Assembly: GCF_008189405.1 (NCBI RefSeq)
Contig: NZ_CP043316.1
Location: forward strand, 558,258 to 622,257
Length of the DNA: 64,000 nt
Source of the DNA: Candidatus Cytomitobacter primus
GTDB lineage: Bacteria; Pseudomonadota; Alphaproteobacteria; CAJXXZ01; 1604HC
Direction: 5' to 3'
Part shown: positions 10,600 through 28,846 of the stretch, in pieces
Numbering within the stretch: the first letter of the stretch is position 1
How the letters are laid out: each line of letters starts with the position of its first letter
The notes under the pieces: generated by a model
Told to the model about the DNA's origin: nothing
The model's input: only the letters and a program-made list of their open reading frames with translations
Database searches by the model: none
Program-made: the position numbers and the translations under genes

Positions 10600-10622
10600 A
10601 AGTCAATTTATAAGGGAGATAT

Positions 10623-12233
10623 ATGAAGAATCTAAGAATTTTATCACTGGTATTATGCTTATCAGTTATGGCAAATGGCCCAGAATTAACGGAATGCACA
10701 AGTAAGTTTGCATATTGTTTGAAGAGTCCTGGTCTCGCAACAGAAGATGCTGTGCAAACCAATCAAATGGAAAAATATACTCAAGCAATTTATGATGAGT
10801 ATAATCAATATGCATTAAGCATTATTCCAAGCTTGGAAGGCAAGAAGTTAAATGTAATTAATATGATGCAAATAGGATATGAAACAAACGAAGATGATGC
10901 AGAAGAACGAGCAGAATATATTAATGATTTAAATGAAGGATCACTGGAAGAATTATATGAAGGATTAACAGAAATTGAAGAACACACTATTCTGCGATAC
11001 GTTTATGAATCTCGTCCTTACATAATGAAGCAGAGTGCTCGCTATGCGGAGTTAGCAGATGCGTATGGTAATTATGACATGGATGGGGATGTATTCAAAA
11101 ATGCTGTGTATCTTGCTGACAGGTCTCAAAATGGAACATTAGAAGTTGATTGGGACTTAGAATCAGATAGGTTGGAAGCTCATAGTTTGTACTACAATTC
11201 AATATATGAGTACAACCTAGAAAATCCAGGATTATCGATGCTGAGCGATAAAGCGGAAGCAGCAAAGGTTAATGCAACTATTTTACAATCCCTATCAAAA
11301 GACAAGGAACATTTTACAAACATTGCAAAGCATATTGCGTTAAAGAAGATGGCAGTTGAGGCGGCAAAAGGCTTGGAGAAATTTAAAATCATGCTTGATG
11401 AGGTTGTTAGACAGGATGCATCTTGGAATGTAATTAGAACTGTCAAGGTAGGGAATGCTATGCAAAAGCATTTTAAGGAGGCTGATAAGTATGTTAGCTG
11501 CCAATCATGGATTCAAGTAACAGATGAAGGAAGTGGCATTGGAACTTATAGAACTATTTTTGGAAGTAAAGATAGAATAAAATTTGCTGAGATCATAGAT
11601 TTATTTAATACAGATAGAGCAAAATGCAAAGAAACTGTTTTGTGTAGATTTAGCAAAGGTTTAGAAAACTATAATAATGATTTTAATAGATTATTGCTAT
11701 ACCCAGATTTCAACATAAGATTTGATCAATTAACTGAGATGACTGTTAATGCACTAGAGGATATGTTAAATGCAATTATTAGGAGTAAGCTTTATTATAA
11801 AGTTGGAAATGGAGGAGGAGACCGAAAATTCCAAGCATATTATCCCGGGGAGGAGCGTAGAGGTGACGTTGAGTTTTTCAAGAAGGATTATGCTGACTGG
11901 TATGCAAAATCTGATGGAGACAAGGCTGTTACAGCATTAAGAAAAGAAGAAGCTGCTAAGCTTGCGAAGGAACGTGATCATGAGGATTATATCGTACACT
12001 TGTTTGACAGAGCAGAGGAATTGCTGAATGGATACGAAGGTGATAAGGACATGATGGGAGAGATCTTTGGAAACTTCTTGTTCTTAAGATGGGCAGAATA
12101 CAAGGAGAATGCTAGAGGGCGAGACTTCATGAACAGTGCAAAGGATGCATTAGAGGGCATGTTAAAACTGGAATCTTCAGACATTGAAAAACTAAATGCA
12201 ATCTCAAACGAAAAAATCAAATCCCTGCAATAA
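10623..12233 (+). CDS. secreted mosaic paralogue family protein, copy 1 (unknown function)
   Basis: 536 aa. Sec signal peptide MKNLRILSLVLCLSVMA|NGPEL. Conserved central block (LRYVYESRPYIMKQSARYAELADAYGNYDMDGDVF...) and conserved C-terminal block (YYPGEERRGDVEFFKKDYADWYAKSDGDK...) shared almost base-for-base with copies at 23735-25070 and 28899-30497. No recognisable domain. Confidence 0.85.
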   Translation: MKNLRILSLVLCLSVMANGPELTECTSKFAYCLKSPGLATEDAVQTNQMEKYTQAIYDEYNQYALSIIPSLEGKKLNVINMMQIGYETNEDDAEERAEYINDLNEGSLEELYEGLTEIEEHTILRYVYESRPYIMKQSARYAELADAYGNYDMDGDVFKNAVYLADRSQNGTLEVDWDLESDRLEAHSLYYNSIYEYNLENPGLSMLSDKAEAAKVNATILQSLSKDKEHFTNIAKHIALKKMAVEAAKGLEKFKIMLDEVVRQDASWNVIRTVKVGNAMQKHFKEADKYVSCQSWIQVTDEGSGIGTYRTIFGSKDRIKFAEIIDLFNTDRAKCKETVLCRFSKGLENYNNDFNRLLLYPDFNIRFDQLTEMTVNALEDMLNAIIRSKLYYKVGNGGGDRKFQAYYPGEERRGDVEFFKKDYADWYAKSDGDKAVTALRKEEAAKLAKERDHEDYIVHLFDRAEELLNGYEGDKDMMGEIFGNFLFLRWAEYKENARGRDFMNSAKDALEGMLKLESSDIEKLNAISNEKIKSLQ

Positions 12234-12290
12234 TATGTCTGTATTAATCCATAAACTTAACAAACCTATATAAGATTAAGGAATTAATAT
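11761..12290 (+). repeat. conserved 3' block of the paralogue family, copy 1 (~530 bp including ~55 bp past the stop)
   Basis: Near-identical to the reverse complement of 23690-24241 (one visible silent mismatch) and highly similar to ~30040-30510. Confidence 0.8.
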
Positions 12291-12983
12291 ATTTGATTTC
12301 CTACTTAAAGCTCATTTATGGAAGTTAAATATAGTAGTTTTCAGATTATTTATTTTCAGAGCATATGCAAGTATTATCATGAAATTATATAAAACAAGAA
12401 AATATTATTATGCATTCCCTAAGCTGTTAAGATGAAGTTGCTTTATAATGGAGTGAAAATCATAGCTCTCGTGAAATAAATACTTATCTTATGGAATGAG
12501 TTAGTTACATTAGGCAAAACTCAGTCTATAATCTTTTAATGTACCGAGTCCTTTCTCAGCAAATCACTAAAAAATATAAGTTTACTGTAGAAATATTGTG
12601 CACGGCTGATACTGCCACATCATTCTAATATGGTGAATTATATATATTAGAAAAGATAAAGAAAATTCTAAGTTAAATTAAAAAAACATTCAAAATCATC
12701 TGAATATTATTTGCTATAATTATAAAATCAATAAGCGAAAATCATGCATAAGCAAACTTCTAATAAAAACATTAATTGAAAGGGGAATTATAAAAGTTTT
12801 GAAGCATTATGCTTTGAGTTATAAATATATGGTTTGTATGATTTAACAAATATGCAAATGAAGAAAATCAAAACATATCATAGCATGGAAGAAATCAGCC
12901 ATAGGATAACAAACAAAATCACATAATAACTTACAAATGCAAAAATCTAATCTACTAGCTATTTAGATAAATTGGATTTTAGA

Positions 12984-13694
12984 TTATTTTGTTGTTTCAT
13001 TATCAGATTGCTTTGACTCTGATTTATCTGATTTTGGTTTATCTTCAGATTGAGCATCGTTTTGTTCAATGCTTTTTCTTGAAACAATTATGTTCCATTT
13101 TCTTTCCATTCTAATAATGAAGAAAGGAAGTTTTTTATTTCTCATGGTTTGCAATATATTGGAAGACTTTCCACCTATTGATCTAAATTCAATTTGACTT
13201 GAAGGAAGAAATGCTTTCACACCCCACGGAAGTAAAGCAACTATAAACCCACCACGTACTTTTTCTATAATAGTTCCTTCAACCAATTTTTTGCTTTGAA
13301 AAATATCTTCTAATTCTTTCCAAGATCTAATATGGTTAACTTTAGAAAAACTAACTACTAAAGATCCATTAGAATCTTCGTGTTTTTCGATCCAAACTGA
13401 AATCAAATCTCCAAGATTAGGAACCTCTCCAAATCCATTAATTTTGAATTCGTTTATATCTATTTTACCTTCGGCTTTAATGCCAATATTAACCCATACA
13501 TAATCTTTAGTAATGCTACTTACTGTAGCTTGAACTATGCTTTTTTCTCTGGGCATAGAAGATAACTTAGTCAGTTCTGACATTGCACTTACGTGTTCTG
13601 ATTTAACCTCTACTATTTGATCGTATTTTGTTTGCTTTGGTTTTAAACTATGCATGTCAACATTATATTCCAACACTTTGTTATAATCAAGCAT
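12984..13694 (-). CDS. S1 RNA-binding domain protein (RpsA-like, short)
   Basis: 236 aa. Two S1-like OB segments (ATVSSITKDYVWVNIGIKAEGKIDINEF and VEGTIIEKVRGGFIVALLPWGVKAFLPSSQIEF). Lys/Ser/Asp-rich tail. Confidence 0.5.
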   Translation of the reverse strand: MLDYNKVLEYNVDMHSLKPKQTKYDQIVEVKSEHVSAMSELTKLSSMPREKSIVQATVSSITKDYVWVNIGIKAEGKIDINEFKINGFGEVPNLGDLISVWIEKHEDSNGSLVVSFSKVNHIRSWKELEDIFQSKKLVEGTIIEKVRGGFIVALLPWGVKAFLPSSQIEFRSIGGKSSNILQTMRNKKLPFFIIRMERKWNIIVSRKSIEQNDAQSEDKPKSDKSESKQSDNETTK

Positions 13695-13753
13695 ATTAGT
13701 AGATATTGCTAAAAATGCACATATAATATATAGATTAGAGGTAAAGGAGTTTT

Positions 13754-15271
13754 ATGAATCAAAATATAAAAGCTAATATGTTGAGCAATTTGCTTGGCAA
13801 AATAGTTAGCTTGTTCTTTCCTATTAAGAAAACAGAAATTAAGAAATACCTTCCTACAGCTATGATGATGTTTATCATTTTATTTAACTATAACGTTGTA
13901 AGAACTTTGAAAGATGCTTTGATCATTGCAGACAGAATATCTGGAGCGGAGGCTGTGAACTTTTTGAAAACATTTGTTGTATTGCCTGCTTCTATTATTT
14001 TTGTGCTTTTGTATAGCAAAATAAGCAATATGTTTAGTAAAACCAATGTGTTTTATGTATGTATCGCGCCATTTATTGTATTTAATATTGTATTTACTTA
14101 TATTTTATACCCTAATGTGGGTTCATTACACCCATCTGCTGAGAGTATTCAAGCTTTGAAGCTTGCTTATCCTAAGCTAAGATCAGTATTTCCTGCGTAT
14201 GGATTATGGACTTATTCTTTGTACTACACATTCTCAGAATTATGGGGAACAGTTGGTATGACATTATTGTTTTGGCAGTTTGCAAACAGAATTGTGAAGA
14301 GTGAAGAATCCAAGAGATTTTACCCATCATTTGGTTTGGTTGGTAATATCGGATTCACAATCGCATCATTTATGGTTATGAATGTTGTTTCTTCACCATC
14401 ATCATTTGCGCAGAATTTTACGTATATTATGAATGTTGTAATCATTTTAAGTCTTGTATTAGTCGCAATATATTGGGGTATCAACAAATATGTACTTACA
14501 GATGAAGATATTGATTGCAATATAAATAAACCTAAAAAGAAGAAAGTAAAGCCTTCATTAGTTGAAAGTTTTAAAATTATATTTTCATCTAAATACTTGG
14601 GATGTATCATGCTTTTGATTTTTTCTTATAACTCTATGATTAATTTAGTAGAAGTTACTTGGAAGAGCCAGGTAAAAGCTTATACATTTTCAAATGATGC
14701 AGAAGCTGCAAGATCAGGTTATACAGCATTAATTGCTAAAACAAATGCATATACCGGATCAGTTTCTATATTATTATTTGCAACAGCAAACTTTTTGTTG
14801 AGTAGATTTAAGTGGGCTGTATCTGCTTCTATTACTCCAATAATCATGGTTTCTACATCCATATTGTTTTTCTTGTTCACAGTATTTCCTAAATTTGCTG
14901 GACCATTAACAAGTATGTTGTCAGTAACACCATTGTTCTTGGCAGTTATTATGGGTGCAATCCAAAATGTTGCAAGTAAAAGTACTAAGTACTCTTTATT
15001 TGACCCTACAAAAGAAATGACATATATTCCTTTGGATTCTGAATTGAAAAGTAAAGGTAAGGCTGCAGTAGACATTGCTGGAAGCAGGATCTCTAAATCA
15101 TTTGGTGGATTAGTACAGTTATTCTTACTATTCGTTACTGGAGGAAGTCAGTTAGATATTGCTCCTTATCTAATGATCTTTATTGTTACAATTGGAGTGA
15201 TTTGGTTTGTAGCTATTAAGCTATTATCAAAACAATATGATGAAGCTTTAAAATCCGATAAGTGTGAATAG
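13754..15271 (+). CDS. tlc: ATP/ADP translocase (nucleotide transporter Tlc/NTT family)
   Basis: 505 aa polytopic membrane protein. N-terminal KKYLPTAMMMFIILFNYNVVRTLKDALII matches the Rickettsia/Chlamydia Tlc signature. Confidence 0.8.
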   Translation: MNQNIKANMLSNLLGKIVSLFFPIKKTEIKKYLPTAMMMFIILFNYNVVRTLKDALIIADRISGAEAVNFLKTFVVLPASIIFVLLYSKISNMFSKTNVFYVCIAPFIVFNIVFTYILYPNVGSLHPSAESIQALKLAYPKLRSVFPAYGLWTYSLYYTFSELWGTVGMTLLFWQFANRIVKSEESKRFYPSFGLVGNIGFTIASFMVMNVVSSPSSFAQNFTYIMNVVIILSLVLVAIYWGINKYVLTDEDIDCNINKPKKKKVKPSLVESFKIIFSSKYLGCIMLLIFSYNSMINLVEVTWKSQVKAYTFSNDAEAARSGYTALIAKTNAYTGSVSILLFATANFLLSRFKWAVSASITPIIMVSTSILFFLFTVFPKFAGPLTSMLSVTPLFLAVIMGAIQNVASKSTKYSLFDPTKEMTYIPLDSELKSKGKAAVDIAGSRISKSFGGLVQLFLLFVTGGSQLDIAPYLMIFIVTIGVIWFVAIKLLSKQYDEALKSDKCE

Positions 15272-15439
15272 AAAATCTTTTCTTTTTAAATGCATTGAGT
15301 GCTTTAATTAGTATTTCATTATCATTGTTTTTTTATCTTTATCTTATTTATTTAATTTTAACTTTTAATTTTTAACCTGATAATGATTAATCATTATATT
15401 TCTATTACAATATGATTTTCTTTATGAAATAATAAAATT

Positions 15440-16420
15440 ATGTTTAATATCGCAATTATCGGGGCTACAGGTCTTATTGGTAGATCTATTATAGATGTAT
15501 TACATGAGCGCGCATTTCCAATTAAGAATTTATACTTATTAAGTAGAGTAGAACAAGAAATTTCATTTAAAGATGAAGTATTAAAATGTACGAAGCTTGA
15601 GGACTTTGATTTTAAGTCTGTAGATATCATTTTTAATGCAACTGATAAAGATGTACTAATGAAATATATTGGCGAGATCACAGAATCTGGAGCATTTTTG
15701 ATTGATAAATCTGAAGCACTTAGAATGGATAAAGATATTCCACTTATTGTTCCAGAAGTTAATTCTGATCAATTAGATAGTTATATTACTAATAATAAAA
15801 TTATTTCTTCTCCAAATTGTGTAGCTATTCCTATGTCCATTATAATTAGAACATTGTCACATAAAACAGCAATTGAACAAATTTTCATGACCACATTTCA
15901 ATCTGTATCTGGAGCAGGCAATAATGGGACTAAAGCATTATTAGATGAAACAAAGAAAAGTTTTATGGCATCAAGTGTGAATGCAACTAATTTCGAAAAA
16001 AGCATAGCATTTGATATTTTGCCTAAAATCGGAAGTTTTAATTCTGACTTTACGACTTCTGAAGAATTGAAAATAAAACAGGAAATGCAGAAGATATTAA
16101 ATAATAAGTTAAATATCTGTGTAACATGCACTCGTGTGCCAGTACTAAAGGGACATGGAGTTGATTTGCATATTCCTTGTAAGTTTAAGGATAGAAATGA
16201 TGCAATTAAAGCACTAAAGAGCTCTGATGTGATTCACGTATGTGATAGAGATGATGCCTATATTACTCAGAAAGAATCCATAGGTGAGGATAAAATTTCT
16301 ATAAGCAGAGTGAGATATATTGATGGAATTTTAAGTATGTGGATTGCATATGATAATGTACGATTTGGTGGATCTGTAAATGGAGTGAAAATTGCTGAAG
16401 CAATTACAAAATCACTTTGA
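15440..16420 (+). CDS. asd: aspartate-semialdehyde dehydrogenase
   Basis: 326 aa. N-terminal Rossmann IAIIGATGLIGR, motif IVPEVN, catalytic SSPNCVAIP. Confidence 0.8.
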   Translation: MFNIAIIGATGLIGRSIIDVLHERAFPIKNLYLLSRVEQEISFKDEVLKCTKLEDFDFKSVDIIFNATDKDVLMKYIGEITESGAFLIDKSEALRMDKDIPLIVPEVNSDQLDSYITNNKIISSPNCVAIPMSIIIRTLSHKTAIEQIFMTTFQSVSGAGNNGTKALLDETKKSFMASSVNATNFEKSIAFDILPKIGSFNSDFTTSEELKIKQEMQKILNNKLNICVTCTRVPVLKGHGVDLHIPCKFKDRNDAIKALKSSDVIHVCDRDDAYITQKESIGEDKISISRVRYIDGILSMWIAYDNVRFGGSVNGVKIAEAITKSL

Positions 16421-16628
16421 TTGTAAAGAAAATAAAATAATAGCTGTACAGCATAGTAATAGCGCAATAATTGTAAAATATATTAACAATGAATAGTATA
16501 ATCGAAATTAATAAGATAAAGTAAAGCTAATATAATTTAATCATATAAGATGAAACAGAATAAAATATGTAGGGTAAAGTGCTTACACATTTACTAATAG
16601 AAAACTGCTATATGCTTTAATAGCGTAT

Positions 16629-17021
16629 CTATTTAGGTTCATAATGTGTCCAATTAGAGAACATGCTATACGCTCTAATAATGTGTCCATCAGGATCTGA
16701 AACTGCAAAAGTACGACCATAACATTCATCAGTTGGTTTTTGCACAACTTTCACATCAAGCTCATTTTGCCATTTATCAAAAAACACATCTACATCTTCT
16801 GTAGATTTCACGTGGATTCCAATTTCAGAAAACCTTACAATAGAAGTGTCTGGAGTTCTGGTTCCTTCACATATTGCAAATGATGAGTCTGCACCAGCTG
16901 CAAATTCTACATAACCAGGGTTAGCAAATACAGGTTTAGCATCAAACAGCTTTTCATAAAAAGCAGTTGAAGATTCCATATTAGATACATAAATAATTTG
17001 TAAATTTGGTCTAATTGTCAT
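16629..17021 (-). CDS. glyoxalase/VOC family protein
   Basis: 130 aa. Paired beta-alpha-beta-beta-beta-like segments typical of lactoylglutathione lyase-like VOC proteins. Confidence 0.45.
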   Translation of the reverse strand: MTIRPNLQIIYVSNMESSTAFYEKLFDAKPVFANPGYVEFAAGADSSFAICEGTRTPDTSIVRFSEIGIHVKSTEDVDVFFDKWQNELDVKVVQKPTDECYGRTFAVSDPDGHIIRAYSMFSNWTHYEPK

Positions 17022-17168
17022 TAAATTTTTTCCTTTGAATTAGAAATAACACTAATTATACCTTTAAACAAGAGTGCTAAATGTGCAAATAATTGCTTTT
17101 CCTCATGGCAAAACATATTCCATTTTAACTAGATATGCATGAATATTCATTATTATATATAGATGCAT

Positions 17169-17879
17169 TTAATTTAAAGATGTGATTTCGCTTAAGTTGT
17201 TGATAAAAGCTTGCATTGTAAATAATCCTGGGTTTTGATTTACAAGCCATTCACATACTTTCAAAGCATCATTTGCATAAATTTTGCGATTAAATACTTG
17301 ATGCTCAAATCGAATCATTTCTTGATTGTTTAAACCAAGGAATTGATGCATAGACATATTATCTCCTGCTCTTAAAGACCATATTTGATCAGCTTGTATT
17401 TTATCATGAAGCTGCTTAGTAGTCCCAGATGGATTGTCTGCTTTGTTTTTATGGTGTACTTCTCCAATTGAAACTGCAAGATTTCTTATTTTATTAATTT
17501 TCTCAATAGAAGATTGAATAATACTCCATGAAATTGATGTGTTTGGAGCCCATAGAATTGGAATAATATTTTGATATGCTTTGTAATCAGATGCAGTATG
17601 ACTGCCTGTAGTTCCAATAAGGATTGGTATATTGTATTGAACAGCTGATTTAATATTATTTAATGTGGATTGATGATTGGAGAAATCCAGAATCACATCA
17701 GCTCCTTTTTCAATATGATTTGATATCTTTGTATTATTTTGCGTTAGTGCAACCCCATGATACTGAGTATTTTCCCTAATAACCGCAGAGTGTATTATTA
17801 TGTTTTGCATTTGAGCAATTTGGATAATAGCTTGACCCATTCTACCATTTGCACCTACTATACATATTTTCATAATCAT
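17169..17879 (-). CDS. dapB: 4-hydroxy-tetrahydrodipicolinate reductase
   Basis: 236 aa. N-terminal MKICIVGANGRMGQAII NAD(P)-binding motif. Length and layout fit DapB. Confidence 0.65.
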   Translation of the reverse strand: MIMKICIVGANGRMGQAIIQIAQMQNIIIHSAVIRENTQYHGVALTQNNTKISNHIEKGADVILDFSNHQSTLNNIKSAVQYNIPILIGTTGSHTASDYKAYQNIIPILWAPNTSISWSIIQSSIEKINKIRNLAVSIGEVHHKNKADNPSGTTKQLHDKIQADQIWSLRAGDNMSMHQFLGLNNQEMIRFEHQVFNRKIYANDALKVCEWLVNQNPGLFTMQAFINNLSEITSLN

Positions 17880-17901
17880 ATTTTAACATCGATCAGATTA
17901 T

Positions 17902-18708
17902 ATGCATATGAATTTACATTCAATGTTTTATTATTCAGCTGATTCTGTTAAGTTTGATCTAATGATTACAGAATATATATTACATGGCATATTTGAAGCT
18001 TTTCCGGTTAGTTCTTCGATGCACTCAATGTTATTTAATTATGCAATGCAAAATAGCTATGTTATGCAAAATATTGGCATAATTGGGATATTACATGGCA
18101 TCACAGCAATTGTGACAATTGTATATTTTCATAAAAGTATAATTAAGTTATTAATAGATTTTATAAAACCAGGTCATTACAATTTTCTTTCTTGGAAACT
18201 ATGTTTGATTCTACTACCTAAATTATTATTTGGATTTATTTACAGAAATGCGAATTTCCCTTTTTCTTTTTATACAATAATTGCATTTGGACTGCTACTT
18301 GCCTTTTATGATATTTATTCCCATCAAAATAAAAAAGCTCATGAAATATCTTATATGCAGTCTATTTTTATTAGTTTTCTAAGTTTATTTGCATTCTTAC
18401 CGGGAGCAAGTAGTTTAGGAACTTACTATACAGCTTTTAGAGCATGCAACATTAATAGGAAGGAATCTCTTGATTATGCATTTATTTTGAATGTGATCCC
18501 ATCTATAGGTGCATTTGTGTTAAGATTTACTTATGTTGAAGTAAATTTAGTACGAATTTTTACTTGCATGTTTGTATACTTATTTGCACTAATTCTTTGT
18601 AGAAAATTAATAAATTATTTATATTTGCTAGGTATTTATAGAGTGATTATAGGAATATGGGTATGTCAAAACATAAATATACAAAAATACTTTTACTGTG
18701 CTTTTTAA
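17902..18708 (+). CDS. uppP: undecaprenyl-diphosphatase (BacA/UppP family)
   Basis: 268 aa polytopic. EAFPVSSSMHS block resembles the UppP TEFLPVSSTGH motif and PGASSLGT resembles PGxSRSG. Somewhat divergent. Confidence 0.5.
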   Translation: MHMNLHSMFYYSADSVKFDLMITEYILHGIFEAFPVSSSMHSMLFNYAMQNSYVMQNIGIIGILHGITAIVTIVYFHKSIIKLLIDFIKPGHYNFLSWKLCLILLPKLLFGFIYRNANFPFSFYTIIAFGLLLAFYDIYSHQNKKAHEISYMQSIFISFLSLFAFLPGASSLGTYYTAFRACNINRKESLDYAFILNVIPSIGAFVLRFTYVEVNLVRIFTCMFVYLFALILCRKLINYLYLLGIYRVIIGIWVCQNINIQKYFYCAF

Positions 18709-20369
18709 TTGTTGGATGTGATAAGAAATCTGATAAGAAAGAAACAATTAATTCAAAGATAGCTTCTAGTATACAAAAAGAAGATTGGTATGCAGCCTCG
18801 AAGCTGCTTAATTTACATTTAAACATGAAAAGCTCTGCTTCAATGCATCTAGCAAATGGTTTTATTTACGATAAACTTGCAAAGCAAGATCCATCCTATG
18901 CAGGATTATCAGTTATTGCATATAAAAGAGCATTGAATTTAGATCCAAATAATTGGTCTGCTTCATTAGCAATCGGTAAATATTATATGAGAGAACATGA
19001 TTACTTAAAGGCGATCAGCGCATTTGCAAAGACATTGACTTCTAATGAAAATAATTTCGAAGCATTATATGGAATGGCAAATGCTGCATATGCAACCAGA
19101 AACATTACATTAGCAAAAAATTGCATAGATAAAGCTATTGATTTACGTGGTGATAATAAATTAGTGAATAGGTTGGCTGCATTGATTTATGCTGCACAAA
19201 ATAACTCTCGAGCAGATAAATATGCAAATAAATATGCATTTATGGAAGATGACTTGTATGAAATTAAATATTTAAGAGACAGGATTCAAGACTGGAAGAA
19301 AACTCATAAAAAAATGAGATACAATCCTAATTTCATGAAATCTTTTGATAGCCCTGATACAAATCAGAAGGATGAAAATATTACAATTGAGTGTGTAATT
19401 CTAAGCTTTAATGAGTCAGGTGCATTTTCTCGTGGAAATAATTTCTTAGAAACTTTACAAGAATTTAAAAGAGATGAATTTACTAAAGGGTTAAGTATCA
19501 GAATGGGAAATAACTCACAAGTTGAAACTGGGTTAGCTTCTAGTCCTGTATATAGTAATAATCAAGATAAGAAATATATATTTGATAATGGGAAATGGAT
19601 TTTAAGTCCAGATCTGAATGATCATAGTAAATTAATTAAGAAAGGTTTTTCAATTGGATTTGATAGCATTAGATATAATTTAAATATTCTGAACTCTAGC
19701 AGCTCTATAATTGATATAATTTCTAGGCCAATTATGCAGGTTTCATCAAAAAATGGTAAAGGTGCATTTGATTCTAATGATAAAAGTTTTGTAAATACTG
19801 GTGGAGATGTAGGTTCTGCATTATCAAATATTCCATCTGGAGTAAAGCTAGAAGTTGAAGCAAATCAGGTCGATAAGGACCATATTATGTTAGGTGTAAT
19901 GTTGGAAATAAGCAAAACAACCTTCAAAAACAACATTGGATCTCTGAATGATAATGCTAATGTGATTAGTGCTCAATTACAAACACAAATCAAAGCTAAA
20001 TTAAATGAAACAATGGTTATTGGTGGTGTATATAGTAATGTGAATGAATCTTCTAAATCAGGAGTTCCTGGCGCACAAAATATGCCATTATTAGATTTAG
20101 TGCTTGCAAATAAAAGTACTCATACTTCTAAAAAGTCTGTAATGATGCTATTAACTGCAAAAAACACACAAGAATCTAAAGTGATGGAAGTTGATATTGA
20201 TCGCATGGAAAACGTTGTTCTATTAAAACAAAGTGAGCCATCATTCTTTAAGCACAAATATAATAGAGAAAAAACTATAAAACAACAAGTACATGCATAT
20301 AGAAGAGAGGATATAAAGTCGCTTAATATATCTAATAATACAATACAATCATTTGCTGAAAGAATATAA
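18657..20369 (+). CDS. TPR-repeat lipoprotein with C-terminal secretin-like domain
   Basis: 570 aa. Lipobox LIVGC. TPR-like repeats from about aa 40-200. The C-terminus (ETMVIGGVYSNVNESSKSGVPGAQNMPLLDLVLANKSTHTSKKSVMMLLTAKNT) matches the secretin C-terminal signature (GGL...VP.LgdIP.lG.LF...eLlifitP). Confidence 0.5.
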   Translation: MGMSKHKYTKILLLCFLIVGCDKKSDKKETINSKIASSIQKEDWYAASKLLNLHLNMKSSASMHLANGFIYDKLAKQDPSYAGLSVIAYKRALNLDPNNWSASLAIGKYYMREHDYLKAISAFAKTLTSNENNFEALYGMANAAYATRNITLAKNCIDKAIDLRGDNKLVNRLAALIYAAQNNSRADKYANKYAFMEDDLYEIKYLRDRIQDWKKTHKKMRYNPNFMKSFDSPDTNQKDENITIECVILSFNESGAFSRGNNFLETLQEFKRDEFTKGLSIRMGNNSQVETGLASSPVYSNNQDKKYIFDNGKWILSPDLNDHSKLIKKGFSIGFDSIRYNLNILNSSSSIIDIISRPIMQVSSKNGKGAFDSNDKSFVNTGGDVGSALSNIPSGVKLEVEANQVDKDHIMLGVMLEISKTTFKNNIGSLNDNANVISAQLQTQIKAKLNETMVIGGVYSNVNESSKSGVPGAQNMPLLDLVLANKSTHTSKKSVMMLLTAKNTQESKVMEVDIDRMENVVLLKQSEPSFFKHKYNREKTIKQQVHAYRREDIKSLNISNNTIQSFAERI

Positions 20370-20476
20370 TAAATATGGTTAAATTATATGATATCTGTAT
20401 AGTGAATTTAACTTAATTTTTGCTCAATAATACATTAAGGGCTTGATTAACCCAAAATTTATGGTAGATTAGTACC

Positions 20477-22150
20477 ATGAAATGTCATCGTAATATTTTA
20501 ATTGTTGTTTTTTCGAGTTTTTTAATGTATGATTCCCCTCACGCTATGGGAGAAGAATTAAATAAAGATACAAATAATATGTGTGCATTTATAGTACAAG
20601 CTTTAGAAGGCGATGCTGTACAAAATAGATCAGATCTTGTGAACATTCTTAAAGAAACATCTATGGTTATGTTAGAATTAGAAGAAATAAAAGGTAAATT
20701 AAGTGGATTATCTTCAAAATTAAGAGGATACGGGTTTGATGATCATAAATCAGGAACGGAATCAGAGAAAAAATTAATAGCAAAAGAAGTAGAAGAATCA
20801 GTTGATAATCAAGAGAAAACTACTATTTGTGATGAGAATGCACCTAATTGCGAATCACAGGAATCACAGGGATTAAGTGATAGTTCTGGTAGTAGCTCTT
20901 CAGGTAATACGAGCCCATCACATGATGAAATATCAGATTCTAAGCAACCAGAAACAGAGCTGGTAGTAGCATCTGAAACAAAAAAAGCAGATAGTCAAGA
21001 AACTACCAACTGTAATGAGAATACTACTACATTGCTAGATTCTAAGAAGGATGTTGCAAGTAGAGCTGTATTAGATGCTTCGACAGAATGTGATGACATA
21101 GAAGAACTTGATGCAAAATATAAATATACTAAACCAGAAGAACCATATGCTGCATACTATACTACAATTCAGGAAGATATAGAAATATTAAAACACGAAA
21201 TAATGACAACATATGTAGAAGCTGATAGCATAAAGCAAAAATTACAATTGAACCAAAGAGTTGTTAGTATACCTGATCTAAGTAATGCTAGCCTTACTAG
21301 CTCTGTTCATGATGTACGTTTCAATGAAATTGATATATCAAAGATGCATTATGATCCTAATCACTTTAGACTTCATACATTAGAGTTATACGATTGCACT
21401 GGCGTTTCATTGCCTCGTATAGATCTATATGACATTTTTCAAATATCTATTATTAACCATTTAGGTTCTGAGATGAATGCAAGTGATTTTTTTATGTTAC
21501 CTATAGATTTTAATCCTTCAGTAGTAAATATTATAAATAGCAATTTAAGTGGTGTGTTTATGGGATTATCAAATACTGTATACAAATTGTTAACATTAAA
21601 CATATCGCATAATGCACTTAAGAAATTTGAGAAATTCTCAGCACCAAAATTACAAGTTTTGAATGGTAATGACAATTCATTTACAAATTTACCATTATAT
21701 TTAGAAAACTTGCAATATTTATTTTTACAAAACAATCTTATTAATAATATTGATTGTGATAATAGTTTGAAATCATTGAGAGTGCTAGATTTAAGTGGCA
21801 ATAATCTTAGTACCCTGAATAGCAACATATTGAAAATTGGTTCAATTGCTCCTAATCTTGAAGAATTGCATATAAGTCATAATAAAATGGAAGGGTTTAT
21901 AGATCTAGGGGATATCCCAAAACTAAGAATACTTAAAGCTTCTGATAACATCAGATTATCAATTAGATTTAATCGTAATATAGAATATATTGATGTTACT
22001 AATACTTACATCATGGAAGTTACTAACTGTCCAGCAGTAGCTTTCATTACATTTGAATATACCCCTAGCATGGTATCAAGCACTGTAATATCACGTACTG
22101 AATCACTTTTAAAATCAGATGAGTTTAAAAAAAAACTAATTGTGAATTAA
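20477..22150 (+). CDS. leucine-rich repeat protein, N-terminal part (probable frameshifted fragment)
   Basis: 557 aa. Acidic and Ser-rich disordered middle. C-terminal LRRs (LDLSGNNLSTLNSNIL, LEELHISHNKMEGF). Ends immediately after an A9 run, and the downstream frame stays open into the next LRR ORF. Confidence 0.6.
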   Translation: MKCHRNILIVVFSSFLMYDSPHAMGEELNKDTNNMCAFIVQALEGDAVQNRSDLVNILKETSMVMLELEEIKGKLSGLSSKLRGYGFDDHKSGTESEKKLIAKEVEESVDNQEKTTICDENAPNCESQESQGLSDSSGSSSSGNTSPSHDEISDSKQPETELVVASETKKADSQETTNCNENTTTLLDSKKDVASRAVLDASTECDDIEELDAKYKYTKPEEPYAAYYTTIQEDIEILKHEIMTTYVEADSIKQKLQLNQRVVSIPDLSNASLTSSVHDVRFNEIDISKMHYDPNHFRLHTLELYDCTGVSLPRIDLYDIFQISIINHLGSEMNASDFFMLPIDFNPSVVNIINSNLSGVFMGLSNTVYKLLTLNISHNALKKFEKFSAPKLQVLNGNDNSFTNLPLYLENLQYLFLQNNLINNIDCDNSLKSLRVLDLSGNNLSTLNSNILKIGSIAPNLEELHISHNKMEGFIDLGDIPKLRILKASDNIRLSIRFNRNIEYIDVTNTYIMEVTNCPAVAFITFEYTPSMVSSTVISRTESLLKSDEFKKKLIVN

Positions 22151-22236
22151 TAGACACGCTGAGCAGTGAAGAATCTGATGAAAGTGAAGAACTTGATGAA
22201 GATATAGAAAATATACAATTTCTAAAAAATGAGCTA

Positions 22237-23241
22237 ATGGTAAATGGAAATAGTATTGGAAATCTTTATGTTGTACGTGGTTGCACAAAAGTAGTACTTA
22301 ATGATATAAAATTGACAGGAAATAAGTTAAGTATTCTGGATAAAATTATTAGTATAAATGAGTTAAGATATCTTGATTTAGTGAATTGTGCTTTGACCAA
22401 GGCTTTACCTAATATATTTACTTTACAACTATTAGAATGCCTATCTTTATCTAATAACAACTTATCAGAAATTGTAATAGCAAAAAAAACACTACCATGT
22501 TTAAGAAAGCTTGATTTATCTCGTAATAATTTATCAAAATTCAGTTGTAGGTTTCTACGACAAATAGAAGATTTGGATTTAAGTAGAAATAAAATTAGTG
22601 ACCTTAAATATATAAAAAATATGAAAAATCTAGTTTCTTTAAATATAGCTAATAATAATATAGATCAATTAGATGATATTGGCGATTTAGTTAATATAGA
22701 AATACTTAACTTTGTAAATAATCGTATTTCAAAATTACCATGCTTAGATGCTCTGCAAAAATTACGTGGATATTATGCACGTAATAATAGGTTTGCATGC
22801 ATAGAAGAAACTTTCAAACCTATTCATAATATAATTTGTAGGAAAGTTCCAATAGGCGTAATATATAATCCAGATACTATGAGATATGTTGTGAAATATG
22901 GTTATCATCATACAATGAATGATGCTCTATATTACCTTCCCTATGAGATGCATATTTGTGGTGGGGATGGAAAAGAATATGATGCAATAGAGAAAGTCTC
23001 ACATACCGATGACGATAAGATATCTAAATTCAAAAAAGAATATAGAGTTGGAATTCCCAATTATAATTCTAAACATAGAATGCAAATACATGGAAATGTA
23101 GATAAAGGGATATATGATTTCATTAGTCATTATGTAACTGTGGATTGTGTGTATTGTGAAGTCAGTAGTACTAATAGACCCCCATCTAATTATGAAGATA
23201 ATTTTCAAAACATGCAGAGATGCGCATGCTATGGCTATTAG
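22237..23241 (+). CDS. leucine-rich repeat protein, C-terminal part
   Basis: 334 aa. Tandem LRRs (LDLSRNNLSKF, LDLSRNKISDLKYIKNMKNLVSLNIANNNIDQL). Its reading frame is open upstream to at least 22141, which suggests it was originally fused to the 20477-22150 ORF. Confidence 0.6.
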   Translation: MVNGNSIGNLYVVRGCTKVVLNDIKLTGNKLSILDKIISINELRYLDLVNCALTKALPNIFTLQLLECLSLSNNNLSEIVIAKKTLPCLRKLDLSRNNLSKFSCRFLRQIEDLDLSRNKISDLKYIKNMKNLVSLNIANNNIDQLDDIGDLVNIEILNFVNNRISKLPCLDALQKLRGYYARNNRFACIEETFKPIHNIICRKVPIGVIYNPDTMRYVVKYGYHHTMNDALYYLPYEMHICGGDGKEYDAIEKVSHTDDDKISKFKKEYRVGIPNYNSKHRMQIHGNVDKGIYDFISHYVTVDCVYCEVSSTNRPPSNYEDNFQNMQRCACYGY

Positions 23242-23689
23242 ATTTGTTTATCATTAGTAATTATGCATCTTGATATTTATTCGTAATGTTTTTTATTATG
23301 CCTTATAATACCATTTTCAATTAATAAATTAAACTTAAGTTACTTTGAATCGCAATCATTTATACCAGAAGATTAGATTAACTATATAAAAATATTAGAT
23401 CTTTGAAGCAGTTGGTTGAAAGGTTTATACATATAATAAGATCATAGTTAGTTAGGATAGCAATGAGAGAAGGGAATTATTTCTACTGCTAATAGTTATG
23501 ACCATTTGATGTTATGACAATATATATCATCATAAGGTAAATGGATGGGATGAATAATTTAGAATATCTATACATTATGCTGCTTCGATTGCCTAAAAAT
23601 GTATTTTCAATAATCTCAATTAATAAATCATAGTATTATATACTATTATAAACTAATCCTATATATCAATAACGTAATAACATTTTTCT

Positions 23690-24241
23690 TAATATTATAT
23701 AGGTTTGTTAAGTTTATGGATTAATACAGACACATTATTGCAGGGATTTGATTTTTTCGTTTGAGATTGCATTTAGTTTCTCAATGTCTGAAGATTCTAG
23801 TTTTAACATGCCCTCTAATGCGTCCTTTGCACTGTTCATGAAGTCTCGCCCTCTAGCATTCTCCTTGTATTCTGCCCATCTTAAGAACAAGAAGTTTCCA
23901 AAGATCTCTCCCATCATGTCCTTATCACCTTCGTATCCATTCAGCAATTCCTCTGCTCTGTCAAACAAGTGTACGATATAATCCTCATGATCACGTTCCT
24001 TCGCAAGCTTAGCAGCTTCTTCTTTTCTTAATGCTGTAACAGCCTTGTCTCCATCAGATTTTGCATACCAGTCAGCATAATCCTTCTTGAAAAACTCAAC
24101 GTCACCTCTACGCTCCTCCCCGGGATAATATGCTTGGAATTTTCGGTCTCCTCCTCCATTTCCAACTTTATAATAAAGCTTACTCCTAATAATTGCATTT
24201 AACATACTTATCAGCCTCCTTAAAATGCTTTTGCATAGCAT
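23690..24241 (-). repeat. conserved 3' block of the paralogue family, copy 2
   Basis: Reverse complement is near-identical to 11761-12290. Confidence 0.8.
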
Positions 24242-25070
24242 TCCCTACCTTGACAGTTCTAATTACATTCCAAGATGCATCCTGTCTAACAACCTCATCA
24301 AGCATGATTTTAAATTTCTCCAAGCCTTTTGCCGCCTCAACTGCCATCTTCTTTAACGCAATATGCTTTGCAATGTTTGTAAAATGTTCCTTGTCTTTTG
24401 ATAGGGATTGTAAAATAGTTGCATTAACCTTTGCTGCTTCCGCTTTATCGCTCAGCATCGATAATCCTGGATTTTCTAGGTTGTACTCATATATTGAATT
24501 GTAGTACAAACTATGAGCTTCCAACCTATCTGATTCTAAGTCCCAATCAACTTCTAATGTTCCATTTTGAGACCTGTCAGCAAGATATACAGCATTTTTG
24601 AATACATCACCATCCATGTCATAGTTACCATACGCATCTGCTAACTCCGCATAGCGAGTACTCTGCTTCATTATGTAAGAACGGGACTCATAAACGTATC
24701 GCAACATGGCATATTCAGTAGCTTGCTCATCCTTTAAATTATTTAGTTGTTCTTGCAACTCTTCTTCACTATATTTAGATAATGATTCTATGTATTCATC
24801 TTCATCATCTTGGTTAATCATTTGCATATATACGATTGATTTACACTTATTATCTGTAAGATCTTTAACAACTTCTTTAGTTCCATCAAGTACAGTTTGA
24901 TAAAACTCATCATCTCTACATTCTAAATTAGATTCCTCCAGCTCTATTGCTAAAGATTGATCAGATTTCTTCAAACAATATGCAAATTTACTTGTGCATT
25001 CCGTTAATTCTGGGCCATTTGCCATAACTGATAAGCATAATACCAGCGATAAAATTCTTAGATTCTTCAT
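23735..25070 (-). pseudogene. paralogue family copy 2, disrupted by an internal deletion of ~100 codons plus a frameshift
   Basis: Two overlapping ORFs in different frames. The 294-aa N-terminal part (signal peptide plus central block) ends at 24186 with KEADKYVKCNY. The 168-aa C-terminal block begins at 24241 with MLNAIIRSKLYYKVGNGGG. The region homologous to copy 1 aa ~292-395 is missing. Confidence 0.7.
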
Positions 25071-25093
25071 ATATCTCCCTTATAAATTGATTT

Positions 25094-25122
25094 ATTATGT
25101 TATATTTACACCTAAATAACAA
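25094..25122 (-). promoter_or_regulatory. sigma70-like promoter TTGTTA-N17-CATAAT of family copy 2 (reverse strand)
   Basis: Reverse complement of 25071-25150 is identical to 10543-10622, including the RBS AAGGGAG. Confidence 0.45.
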
Positions 25123-25217
25123 GAGATTTTGCAGGAAAACCTACCTGAAATAGGCATAATTTATATAATATTTAGGTAGCAATCTTATAGAGTGTACTAT
25201 TTCTAATAATAATTATC

Positions 25218-25763
25218 CTAATCGAATATTTCTTCTTTTATCACTTTCCCACCCATATCAAACTGCTTCCATATTCCTGATTTATTTCCATCTATGTATT
25301 GTCCAAATTCTAGAATATTAGATGATTTTGGGTGATATGTAATAGAATTTCCGTAAAGTAAATCATCTTTATAATTCTCTTCTTTGACTAAATACCCTTT
25401 TCCAAATATGAAAAATGCTCCATGTTTTTTATTATCCTTATATGCTCCTATTTGCGATAAATTACGATTCTCAAATATATACATAGCGCCATCTGGTTTT
25501 TCACCCTTATAGTTCATGATCAAACTTAATTCACCATTTTTATAAATTTCTACAACTCCATCAATTTTCCCATCTTTATAATTGACTCTTTGTGCAATGG
25601 ATCCATTTTTATAATATATGCTCTCTCCATTTCGCACGCCATCTTTCAATATATGCTTCTCAACAACTTTTCCATCAATCACAACTTCTTCAAATTGTTG
25701 CTCTGGAATTTCTTCAGTTTTACAGTTCAATTCATGCTTTTTTATAATCTGCTCAATATTCAT
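25218..25763 (-). CDS. MORN-repeat (MORN_2 / YwqK-like) protein, translationally coupled to vgrG
   Basis: 181 aa. Repeated YKNG/YKDGK/YKGEKPDG units. Its ATG shares one nucleotide with the vgrG stop (TAATG). Confidence 0.6.
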   Translation of the reverse strand: MNIEQIIKKHELNCKTEEIPEQQFEEVVIDGKVVEKHILKDGVRNGESIYYKNGSIAQRVNYKDGKIDGVVEIYKNGELSLIMNYKGEKPDGAMYIFENRNLSQIGAYKDNKKHGAFFIFGKGYLVKEENYKDDLLYGNSITYHPKSSNILEFGQYIDGNKSGIWKQFDMGGKVIKEEIFD

Positions 25764-28768: not shown

Positions 28769-28846
28769 TATATGAGATGATGGTTAATATTCTCTTAAAA
28801 TTATGCTGGGCTTTCCTACAATTTATTAATAAACACCACATAAATC

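What the first reader, a model, noticed from the sequence alone, without database searches (positions are those of the whole stretch)
18657..20369. Lipoprotein combining a TPR pilotin-like N-terminus with a secretin-like C-terminal domain
Lipobox LIVGC, then ~160 aa of TPR-like repeats. The C-terminal ~200 aa carry the secretin signature (…ETMVIGGVYSNV…SGVPGAQNMPLLDLVLAN…SVMMLLTAKNT). Canonical secretins have N0/N1/N3 domains, and TPR lipoproteins (PilF, PilW, TadD) are usually separate pilotins. A fusion would be unusual. No other T2SS, T4P or Tad genes appear in the window.
Basis: partly seen in the sequence, partly recalled or inferred. Interest (0 to 1): 0.55.

Follow-up and report, generated by a model that had tools for sequence, protein, structure and literature searches.

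The report
Orphan TPR-fused lipoprotein secretin
This intact gene, from the 0.62 Mb genome of a protist endosymbiont, encodes an outer-membrane pore protein (secretin) that carries its own lipid anchor and helper-like TPR domain, lacks the usual docking domains, and belongs to a widespread, apparently unstudied family found next to large secreted proteins rather than next to pilus or secretion machines.

Summary
ORF 18657-20369 (+) is intact. It is 100% identical to a 'tetratricopeptide repeat protein' of Candidatus Cytomitobacter primus, a Holosporaceae endosymbiont of Diplonema japonicum. It has a lipobox (IVGC, Cys21), about five TPRs (res 31-222), an unconserved 18-residue linker, a full secretin domain (res 241-503; PF00263 E=7.5e-16; the top 40 Foldseek PDB hits are all secretins) and a conserved C-terminal tail. 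It has no N0/N1/N3 domain.

The fusion is not a one-off. Among the 75 closest full-length relatives, 75 have Secretin, 66 have TPR_2 and none has Secretin_N; most carry a lipobox. No T2SS, T4P, Tad or T3SS gene lies next to any of about 75 family loci.

In free-living Rhodospirillales the gene is paired with a 4,000-residue, signal-peptide-bearing Ricin-lectin protein. More distant members sit beside Tectonin or Tachylectin proteins. In Holosporaceae the conserved order is dapB / uppP / TPR-secretin, mostly followed by fast-evolving signal-peptide or LRR proteins.

The T6SS genes that flank the gene in this window are not conserved neighbours.

Best reading (inferred): a self-piloting, stand-alone secretin pore for neighbouring Sec-exported cargo. 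Main rival: the outer-membrane exit of the residual pilB/gspF system reported for this genome. This is a new variant of a known kind.

The parts
18657..20369 (+). TPR-liposecretin gene, 570 aa (NCBI start at 18663 gives 568 aa); stop codon at 20367-20369
   Evidence: ORF. 100% identical to P0001, 'tetratricopeptide repeat protein [Ca. Cytomitobacter primus]'. Pfam Secretin and TPR hits.
18657..18719 (+). Signal peptide with lipobox (res 1-21, ...LLLCFLIVG-C21). The residue after the Cys is Asp.
   Evidence: Read directly from the sequence. The lipobox is conserved in homologues, and 90 of 123 full-length family representatives have a lipobox-like motif.
18747..19322 (+). TPR domain, res 31-222: 11 helices, i.e. 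about five TPRs plus a capping helix
19323..19376 (+). Unconserved linker, res 223-240
   Evidence: 0-6% identity among homologues, against about 70% in the flanking domains. Low pLDDT.
19377..20165 (+). Secretin domain, res 241-503. It includes a lineage-specific low-confidence insert (278-349), the PF00263 match (350-502) and the VPGAQNMPLLDLVLAN motif with invariant P471/P477.
20166..20366 (+). Conserved C-terminal helical tail, res 504-570 (family motif FRxGD...W; D552 invariant). It sits where the S-domain sits in other secretins.
   Evidence: Alignments. pLDDT 73-93 over res 511-570 (62 for 501-510) in the full-length model, but 42-50 in the model without the TPR; that comparison is confounded by alignment depth.
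17902..18708 (+). uppP (bacA), directly upstream and overlapping the start of the secretin gene by 52 nt; probably co-transcribed
   Evidence: Pfam BacA. The same overlapping arrangement occurs in all seven Holosporaceae loci.
20477..22150 (+). LRR protein, 557 aa, with a signal-peptide-like N-terminus (MKCHRNILIVVFSSFLMYDSPHA); candidate cargo
   Evidence: LRR_4 and LRR_8. Hydropathy maximum 2.8. LRR proteins lie downstream in L004/L012 and L104 as well.
22237..23241 (+). Second LRR protein, 334 aa, with no obvious signal peptide

Best explanation
The gene encodes a self-contained outer-membrane secretin.

Shown: a lipoprotein signal, a five-repeat TPR module, a flexible linker, a complete secretin domain without N0/N1/N3 rings, and a conserved C-terminal tail. 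Both folded domains are under equal constraint.

Inferred mechanism:
- After Sec export and lipidation, the lipid anchor and TPR module do in cis what PilF/PilW/Tgl/TadD-type TPR lipoprotein pilotins do in trans. [quoted passage not shown]
- The secretin domains then assemble into a gated pore.
- Because the N0 domain that normally docks on GspC/PilP-type inner-membrane partners is absent, and because the family is never encoded beside pilus or T2SS/T3SS genes, the pore most likely works as a stand-alone, cargo-dedicated exit for Sec-exported periplasmic proteins encoded next to it.
- In free-living Rhodospirillales the cargo would be the ~4,000-residue Ricin-lectin proteins. In other members it would be the Tectonin or Tachylectin proteins.
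- In Cytomitobacter and its relatives the cargo would be the fast-evolving signal-peptide or LRR proteins, which would be released into the host cytoplasm.
For: Identity and anatomy.

The family shares the whole architecture. BLASTP matches to a Rhodospirillales member are collinear in both the TPR and the secretin parts. In the 75 closest relatives, Secretin is found in 75/75, TPR_2 in 66/75 and Secretin_N in 0. Lipoboxes.

The gene is retained and constrained in 0.56-0.63 Mb genomes. Identity between Cytomitobacter species is 65-67%, against 59% for DapB and 48% for UppP. The TPR is 73% and the secretin 68-84% identical, but the linker only 6%.

No type-IV-filament or T3SS neighbours were found: Pfam annotation, and no GspE/PilB/TadA Walker-A motif in 701 ORFs across 896 kb of 61 metagenomic loci.

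Cargo link:
- A giant ORF lies immediately upstream on the same strand in 8 of 8 intact Rhodospirillales loci.
- The full-length giant is 3,969-4,358 aa with a signal-peptide-like N-terminus and a Ricin_B domain.
- The pairing persists for homologues only 29% and 23% identical (Ferrovibrio L022 and L023).
- The three loci without the giant carry frameshifted or truncated secretin genes.
- In the wider family, 14 of 59 loci have a neighbour of at least 700 aa. Five of the six scanned are lectin-type or signal-peptide proteins (Ricin_B, Tachylectin, Tectonin).
- In Holosporaceae, LRR or signal-peptide proteins lie directly downstream in 6 of 7 genomes.

Precedent for a TPR pilotin clasping a secretin C-terminus: RcpA-TadD, PMC10499894.
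Against: - Every experimentally studied secretin works with an inner-membrane machine. No energy source is apparent for a secretin-only route.
- The C. primus genome reportedly keeps pilB and gspF. These would need an outer-membrane exit, and I could not establish whether a second secretin exists.
- The cargo link in Holosporaceae is weak. The neighbours are not homologous to the giant lectin proteins and barely to each other. In Nesciobacter the downstream gene is mutS. In C. indipagum the neighbour is on the opposite strand.
- George et al. associate LRR proteins with the T6SS.
- Signal peptides were judged by eye and by hydropathy only.
- The AF2 model is a monomer of moderate confidence (pLDDT 72.5), with res 257-349 unresolved.
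- Multimerisation, lipidation and outer-membrane location are all untested.
- The residue after the lipobox Cys is Asp. That is an inner-membrane retention signal in Enterobacteriaceae; whether the rule applies here is unknown.
- The frameshifts in the giant-less loci could be assembly errors.
Confidence: 0.45

Rival explanations
1. It is the outer-membrane component of the residual T2SS/T4P-like system of Cytomitobacter (PilB ATPase plus GspF platform), as George et al. implied by listing gspD/pilQ. In this reading the TPR module replaces both the pilotin and the N-domains, and cargo or a minimal pseudopilus is pushed through the pore by that machine.
For: Table S3 of bioRxiv 10.1101/719211 lists gspF, gspD, pilB and pilQ for C. 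primus, and the same plus pilM for C. indipagum. Retaining an ATPase and a platform in a 0.62 Mb genome implies they function, and that function needs an outer-membrane exit. The only C. primus secretin-domain protein recovered in the database searches is this one. By profile, the closest solved secretins are T2SS GspD (64 bits) and PilQ (50 bits).
Against: - There is no N0 domain, which is the contact for GspC or PilP.
- No pilin, prepilin peptidase or alignment genes are reported for C. primus.
- pilB and gspF are not in this 64 kb window.
- The family is never adjacent to such genes in about 75 loci.
- Scores against GspD, PilQ and SctC equivalog models are far below their cut-offs.
Confidence: 0.3
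2. It supplies the missing outer-membrane part of the modified T6SS of Holosporaceae, which lacks the lipoprotein TssJ. In this reading it works as a lipoprotein pore or anchor contacted by TssM.
For: In this window the gene lies between tssL-tssM-tssA (5037-10451) and vgrG (25763-28768). TssJ and Hcp are reported missing in all these endosymbionts. Like TssJ, it is an outer-membrane lipoprotein.
Against: - No TssL, TssM, TssA or VgrG homologue lies within 10 kb of the gene in five other Holosporaceae genomes, nor in L004 or L104.
- The adjacency here is a by-product of an 11.4 kb invertible segment bounded by 97-99% identical inverted repeats.
- The family occurs in many genomes in unrelated contexts.
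- No known T6SS uses a secretin.
Confidence: 0.04
3. It exports a polymer such as an exopolysaccharide. In this reading it is a functional analogue of the TPR-plus-outer-membrane-channel exporters PgaA, BcsC and PelB, or of AlgK-AlgE.
For: - It has the same overall logic: a periplasmic TPR scaffold fused to an outer-membrane channel.
- Its start overlaps uppP, the undecaprenyl-diphosphate phosphatase, in all Holosporaceae loci.
- Sugar-nucleotide genes lie beside the Ferrovibrio member.
- Secretins are required for slime secretion in cyanobacteria and myxobacteria (PMC12475490).
Against: No synthase or glycosyltransferase is consistently nearby. The recurrent neighbours are proteins: lectin-type giants, LRR proteins, NMT1_3 and pentapeptide-repeat proteins. 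An endosymbiont living free in host cytoplasm with minimal metabolism is an unlikely exopolysaccharide producer. The uppP synteny may only be frozen gene order.
Confidence: 0.08
4. It is a DNA-uptake (competence) secretin of the HofQ/PilQ type, working with PilB/GspF. It might be linked to the gene-transfer-agent genes kept by these endosymbionts.
For: There are weak HofQ and PilQ model hits. A ComM-like gene lies in the window at 52361-53890. GTA genes are conserved in these symbionts (PMC9254644).
Against: There is no pilin, ComEA/ComEC or other competence context. The GTA paper mentions no uptake machinery. Free-living family members are paired with giant exoproteins, not with competence genes.
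Confidence: 0.04

Closest known systems
Liposecretins (HxcQ of P. aeruginosa; BfpB, TcpC, PilN of type IVb pili)
   Same: The secretin itself carries an N-terminal lipobox and is thought to pilot itself to the outer membrane through Lol without a separate pilotin (Viarre et al. 2009, as cited in PMC12475490 and PMC4311626). BfpB is among the fold matches.
   Different: Those proteins keep N0/N-type periplasmic domains and are encoded inside T2SS or T4bP operons. This protein has a TPR module instead, no N-domains and no such operon.
RcpA-TadD (Tad) and PilQ-PilF/PilW/Tgl (T4aP) secretin-pilotin pairs
   Different: There the two parts are separate polypeptides in pilus operons; here they are one chain. 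By sequence, RcpA is the most distant solved secretin (26 bits, against 64 for GspD). The TPR module is no closer to pilotins than to MamA.
RhcC2-Y4yS of rhizobial T3SS
   Same: A short secretin that lacks the N-terminal half (RhcC2, ~40 kDa), stabilised by a small TPR lipoprotein, in Alphaproteobacteria (PMC4311626).
   Different: Those are separate genes inside a T3SS cluster, with RhcC1 supplying the N-domains. No T3SS genes are present here.
TPR-plus-channel exporters (PgaA, BcsC, PelB, AlgK/AlgE) and Slam (type XI) translocons
   Same: The logic is the same: an N-terminal periplasmic TPR module joined to a C-terminal outer-membrane channel. For Slam, the channel is also cargo-specific and encoded next to its substrate. 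Three family members even hit the TPR_Slam model.
   Different: Their channels are monomeric 14-18-stranded barrels, not multimeric secretins. The resemblance is analogy, not homology.
Two-partner secretion (T5b, TpsA/TpsB)
   Same: The gene-pair logic matches: a very large Sec-dependent exoprotein encoded beside a dedicated outer-membrane transporter.
   Different: That transporter is an Omp85/POTRA protein and the cargo carries a TPS domain. Neither is present here.

Membership tests
Secretin superfamily (PF00263) | C-terminal secretin domain above the curated HMM threshold | tested here: met
   58.6 bits against a cut-off of 27.5, E=7.5e-16. The family profile matches GspD, PilQ, MxiD, InvG, pIV and RcpA in the PDB.
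Secretin superfamily (PF00263) | Secretin fold (long beta-hairpins of the double barrel and gate, plus an amphipathic helical loop) | tested here: met
   AF2 strands run from 350 to 503, with helix 477-483 in the VPG...PLLDLV motif. The 40 top Foldseek PDB hits are all secretins, with probability 1.0.
Secretin superfamily (PF00263) | Periplasmic N0 and N1-N3 ring-building domains N-terminal to the secretin domain | tested here: not met
   No Secretin_N or other N-domain hit. The model shows only TPR helices up to residue 222, then a linker, then the first secretin strand at 241. None of the 75 relatives has Secretin_N.
Secretin superfamily (PF00263) | Detergent-resistant homomultimer of 12-15 subunits in the outer membrane | not testable with these tools
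   Only monomer prediction was available.
T2SS GspD / T4P PilQ / T3SS SctC / MshL / HofQ equivalogs | Score above the NCBIfam equivalog cut-off | tested here: not met
   SctC 43.3 against 238; PilQ 37.8 against 284; GspD 31.4 against 351; MshL 29.3 against 250; HofQ 25.9 against 554.
T2SS / T4P / Tad / T3SS secretins | Encoded with the cognate ATPase, platform and pilin or needle genes | tested here: not met
   None in the window. None in the homologous loci. pilB and gspF are reported elsewhere in the genome, but I could not inspect them.
TPR lipoprotein pilotins (PilF/PilW/Tgl/TadD) | Lipobox plus five or six TPRs | tested here: met
TPR lipoprotein pilotins (PilF/PilW/Tgl/TadD) | Sequence membership (TIGR02521 type_IV_pilW), as a separate small protein in a pilus locus | tested here: not met
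   23.9 bits against a cut-off of 154. The module is fused, not separate. MamA and designed TPRs score higher than the pilotins.
TPR lipoprotein pilotins (PilF/PilW/Tgl/TadD) | Binds and stabilises the cognate secretin | not testable with these tools
   There is only an indirect hint. The C-tail pLDDT is 73-93 (res 511-570) in the model with the TPR and 42-50 in the model without it, but the second alignment was shallower, so the comparison is confounded.
Liposecretins (HxcQ/BfpB/TcpC) | Lipobox on the secretin polypeptide itself | tested here: met
   Read from the sequence, and conserved across homologues.
T6SS membrane complex (TssJ role) | Conserved linkage with tssL/tssM | tested here: not met
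   The adjacency occurs only in C. primus. It is absent within +-10 kb in the other Holosporaceae genomes.

The most novel reading that the evidence does not exclude
TPR-liposecretins may be a pilus-independent, cargo-dedicated outer-membrane translocon: in effect a secretin-based 'two-partner' route. The fused TPR module would both pilot the pore and receive Sec-exported cargo encoded next door. Free-living Rhodospirillales would use it for ~4,000-residue lectin proteins. Genome-reduced Holosporaceae would have kept it as a minimal way to release LRR effectors into the host cytoplasm.
Probability: 0.3. Interest if true: 0.8.

Novelty: new variant of a known kind. Interest (0 to 1): 0.6.

Why it matters
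Secretins are understood as the outer-membrane ends of four large machines (T2SS, type IV pili including Tad, T3SS, filamentous-phage export), to which they dock through their N-domains. A large family that has replaced those domains with a lipid-anchored TPR module would question that rule, especially since it is never encoded with such machines and repeatedly sits beside very large secreted lectin-type proteins. It would point to a simpler, cargo-specific route across the outer membrane.

The family survives in 0.56-0.63 Mb endosymbiont genomes, where it is conserved better than neighbouring housekeeping genes. This suggests it is important for the symbiosis. It also gives a concrete candidate for how Sec-dependent LRR proteins could reach the host cytoplasm, and it refines the 'reduced T2SS/T4P' annotation of these genomes. 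The fused architecture is also a natural test case for how pilotins work.

Tried and rejected
- T6SS link: rejected. Tested by tblastn of C. primus TssL, TssM, TssA, VgrG and the 536-aa family against five other Holosporaceae loci; nothing was found within 10 kb.
- TadD-RcpA fusion origin: not supported. RcpA is the weakest solved match, and the TPR module is not specifically TadD-like.
- Remnant of the giant lectin gene in C. primus: none found in the window or in the Holosporaceae loci (tblastn), and none among the database hits.
- The search for related loci with the broad alignments A3 and A5 failed for lack of a conserved stretch. The narrower A2 and A6 worked.
- The afdb50 fold library was unavailable.
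- The look-up of the Nesciobacter protein P0007 failed. Its locus came from the genome scan instead (L013).
- The promoter/terminator scan was uninformative: 36 promoter-like sites against 49.7 expected in this AT-rich region.
- A second AF2 run on the secretin half alone, meant to test whether the tail's confidence depends on the TPR, is confounded by a shallower alignment.
- Literature searches for TPR-fused or orphan secretins found no description of this family.
- I could not locate pilB and gspF, or check for a second secretin, in the rest of the C. primus genome with the tools and caps available.
- The Pfam scan of alignment A4 exceeded the size limit, and cluster look-ups gave no organism names.
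Full report
**1. Observation**

The ORF at 18657-20369 (+) is real and intact (570 aa). It is 100% identical to a protein that NCBI names 'tetratricopeptide repeat protein [Candidatus Cytomitobacter primus]' (P0001, 568 aa from the second Met). The window (~30% G+C) therefore comes from this Holosporaceae endosymbiont of the diplonemid Diplonema japonicum, whose genome is 0.62 Mb.

Pfam gives Secretin PF00263 at E=7.5e-16 (58.6 bits against a curated cut-off of 27.5, res 350-502). It also gives TPR_2 and TPR_19 above threshold over res ~86-183. NCBIfam equivalog models for SctC, PilQ, GspD, MshL, HofQ and PilW all hit only partially and far below their cut-offs.

An AlphaFold2 model built on 46 homologues (mean pLDDT 72.5) shows:
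- the signal peptide and lipobox, with Cys21;
- 11 helices over res 31-222 (pLDDT above 90);
- a low-confidence linker, res 223-240;
- the first secretin strand at 241-259;
- a poorly modelled insert, res 257-349;
- long beta-hairpins, res 350-503;
- helical C-terminal elements between res 518 and 569 (pLDDT 73-93).

**2. Context in the window**

No T2SS, T4P or Tad gene occurs among the called genes of the window. No prepilin or Flp motif occurs in any reading frame.

The gene lies between T6SS genes: tssL 5037-5771, tssM 5764-9591 and tssA 9579-10451 on one side, and vgrG 25763-28768 (-) with a 181-aa MORN-like gene on the other. This adjacency is not conserved. tblastn of these T6SS proteins finds nothing within 10 kb of the orthologue in five other Holosporaceae genomes, nor in L004 or L104.

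The 11.4 kb segment that carries the gene (12284-23684) is bounded by inverted copies, 97-99% identical, of a 536-aa gene family. In another assembly of the same species the segment is inverted relative to the T6SS flanks (L001).

What is conserved in all seven Holosporaceae loci is uppP immediately upstream, overlapping the start of the secretin gene; dapB (-) lies just upstream of uppP in most of them, though in L010 it sits about 4 kb away on the other strand. In six of the seven, the next gene encodes a protein with a signal-peptide-like N-terminus:
- LRR proteins in C. primus (557 aa, followed by a 334-aa LRR protein), in MAG HK-STAS-PROT-4 (876 aa) and in L104 (941 aa);
- a weak-LRR protein on the opposite strand in C. 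indipagum;
- unknown signal-peptide proteins in L010 and L011.
In Nesciobacter the downstream gene is mutS instead. These neighbours are barely alignable with one another.

**3. Published annotation**

George et al. (bioRxiv 10.1101/719211) report for C. primus only gspF, gspD, pilB and pilQ as T2SS/T4P genes, and suggest a reduced hybrid system. They report a T6SS lacking Hcp and the outer-membrane lipoprotein TssJ, and they note LRR proteins near T6SS effector genes. A 2025 review repeats the T6SS point.

The gene studied here is probably what was scored as gspD and/or pilQ. Neither paper mentions the TPR fusion or the absence of N-domains, and neither uses the word 'secretin'. I could not inspect the rest of the genome, so whether a second secretin exists remains open.

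**4. The family**

Close homologues (39-67% identity) occur in C. indipagum, in related 0.56-0.63 Mb genomes and in Nesciobacter. Between Cytomitobacter species the TPR is 73% identical and the secretin 68-84%, but the linker only 6%. The whole protein (65-67%) is better conserved than DapB (59%) or UppP (48%). This indicates purifying selection on two folded domains joined by a flexible tether.

Free-living Rhodospirillales, Rhodospirillaceae and Thalassospiraceae MAGs carry 700-760-aa homologues with the same order: lipobox, TPR, a Pro/Ala-rich linker, secretin, tail. BLASTP matches to the window protein are collinear in both domains (TPR E=1e-7, secretin E=3e-15).

An exhaustive HMMER search with the secretin half found 518 cluster representatives at E<=1e-3 and 76 at E<=1e-10. 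Of the 75 closest full-length ones, 75 have Secretin, 66 TPR_2, 65 TPR_19, and none Secretin_N. A lipobox-like motif is present in 90 of the 123 that are at least 520 aa long. The family consensus keeps the GC lipobox, LHxLNG, RxxDW, YSLNIAN, RPTL, GVPxLxDIPxxQYxFS and a C-terminal FRxGD...W...FLYY tail.

By profile, the closest solved secretins are GspD (64 bits) and PilQ (50), then MxiD (42), InvG, pIV, and RcpA last (26). The family is therefore not assignable to any established secretin class.

Literature searches found no description of it.

**5. Genomic associations of the family**

In 8 of 8 Rhodospirillales loci with an intact gene, a giant ORF ends 40-100 bp upstream on the same strand. 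The giants are 59-91% identical over more than 2,000 residues. Full-length examples are 3,955-4,358 aa. One begins with a signal-peptide-like sequence and contains about 330-residue tandem modules. Its only Pfam domain is a C-terminal Ricin_B lectin. There are no NCBIfam or PDB matches.

The pairing persists at much greater divergence:
- A Ferrovibrio 4,012-aa Tectonin/Ricin protein (29% identity) lies next to a 614-aa TPR+Secretin gene.
- A 1,826-aa homologue (23% identity) is followed by a 599-aa TPR+Secretin gene.

The three relatives that lack the giant have a frameshifted or N-terminally truncated secretin gene (L006, L007, L008). These disruptions could be assembly errors.

Among 59 metagenomic loci of the wider family:
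- 14 have a neighbour of at least 700 aa at position +-1. Of the six scanned, five are signal-peptide proteins: one Ricin_B, one Tachylectin, two Tectonin and one unknown. The sixth is a histidine kinase.
- 28 have an NMT1_3 (TAXI-type binding-protein-like) gene overlapping the upstream end and/or a pentapeptide-repeat or GAF protein just downstream.
- No GspE/PilB/TadA-type Walker-A motif occurs in 701 ORFs over 896 kb (a regular-expression test only).

**6. Mechanism**

Shown: the architecture, the conservation and the gene linkage.

Inferred:
- The lipid anchor and TPR module act in cis like the PilF/PilW/Tgl/TadD pilotins. TadD is a five-TPR lipoprotein that clasps the last residues of RcpA (PMC10499894).
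- The conserved tail is a candidate for the equivalent contact. The only hint is that its pLDDT falls from 73-93 with the TPR present to 42-50 without it, and that comparison is confounded by alignment depth.
- Without N0 the pore cannot make the usual contact with an inner-membrane assembly. Together with the gene contexts, this favours a stand-alone exit dedicated to neighbouring Sec-exported cargo. The logic resembles Slam or two-partner secretion, but with a secretin as the pore.
- For C. primus, the 557-aa signal-peptide LRR protein immediately downstream is the best cargo candidate. A Sec signal is not expected for a T6SS substrate; that point rests on general knowledge.

I put 0.45 on this reading. 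The identity claim alone (a genuine, self-anchored, N-domain-less secretin) I would put at about 0.85.

**7. Rivals**

(a) Outer-membrane exit of the residual PilB/GspF system: 0.3. This is plausible because those genes are retained and no other secretin is known to me. It is weakened by the missing N0 domain and by the family's consistent lack of such neighbours.

(b) TssJ substitute for the T6SS: 0.04. The adjacency is not conserved.

(c) Polymer exporter analogous to PgaA, BcsC, PelB or AlgK/AlgE: 0.08. The uppP overlap and the TPR-plus-channel logic speak for it. The protein neighbours and the endosymbiont lifestyle speak against it.

(d) DNA-uptake secretin: 0.04.

**8. Verdict**

The finding is real and more interesting than a single odd fusion. 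The gene belongs to a widespread, apparently uncharacterised class of TPR-liposecretins with a distinctive genomic association, and the class is retained under strong genome reduction.

It is a new variant of a known kind: the secretin fold and the pilotin concept are known, while the fused, N-domain-less, machine-independent arrangement and the cargo pairing are not described in the literature I could search.

The main weaknesses are that function is inferred only from architecture and synteny, that the cargo link in the endosymbionts is suggestive at best, and that the relation to pilB/gspF in this genome is unresolved.

Noticed in passing
window 10536-12283 and 23685-25157 (inverted repeats); segment 12284-23684: Two inverted copies, 97-99% identical, of a ~1.6 kb gene (536-aa family, no Pfam hit) flank an 11.4 kb segment. 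In assembly GCA_951805245.1 of the same species this segment is inverted relative to the T6SS flanks. Copy B is split into two ORFs here (24186-25070 and 23735-24241) but is intact (535 aa) in the other assembly. A third copy lies at 28899-30497.
   Followed up: partly
window 5037-12233 and 25218-30497: T6SS genes tssL, tssM and tssA are followed by a 536-aa paralogue. vgrG (1001 aa) and a 181-aa MORN/YwqK-like gene are followed by another paralogue. The 536-aa family looks like a T6SS effector candidate.
   Followed up: no
L005, L015-L021 (upstream of the TPR-secretin); P0055-P0072: Giant proteins of 3,950-4,358 aa in free-living Rhodospirillales are 59-91% identical over more than 2,000 residues. 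That is unusually conserved for a giant exoprotein. They have a signal-peptide-like N-terminus, about 330-residue tandem modules, a coiled-coil stretch and a Cys-rich C-terminal Ricin_B lectin, and no other recognisable domain.
   Followed up: partly
L046 5104-8564; L053 9000-12665; L102 3041-6767 (and about 25 more loci): In the wider family the TPR-secretin gene is translationally coupled to an upstream NMT1_3 (TAXI-type solute-binding-protein-like) gene. It is followed by a pentapeptide-repeat protein with a signal peptide or lipobox, or by a GAF protein. A pentapeptide-repeat protein was recently found to co-purify with cyanobacterial PilQ 'nozzles' (PMC12475490).
   Followed up: partly
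window 18717-18722 (Cys21-Asp22): The residue after the lipidated Cys is Asp, Glu or Asn in all Holosporaceae members, but variable in free-living ones. In Enterobacteriaceae, Asp at +2 retains lipoproteins in the inner membrane. If a similar rule held here, the protein would bridge both membranes.
   Followed up: no
L006 ~10020-10037; L007 9956; L008 ~11245: The three free-living relatives without the giant neighbour carry frameshifted or N-terminally truncated TPR-secretin genes. IS elements (DDE_Tnp_1) flank the L006 copy. This could be co-decay of a two-gene module, or it could be assembly error.
   Followed up: partly
window 17902-18708 / 18657: uppP (undecaprenyl-diphosphate phosphatase) overlaps the start of the secretin gene by 52 nt here and by 16-37 nt in other Holosporaceae. 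This suggests a conserved operon of unclear meaning.
   Followed up: partly
window 294-4872 (-); 13754-15271 (+); 52361-53890 (+): The cluster rseP-bamA-skp-fabZ is intact, so BAM is retained. An ADP/ATP translocase (TLC) and a ComM-like Mg-chelatase-family gene are also present.
   Followed up: no
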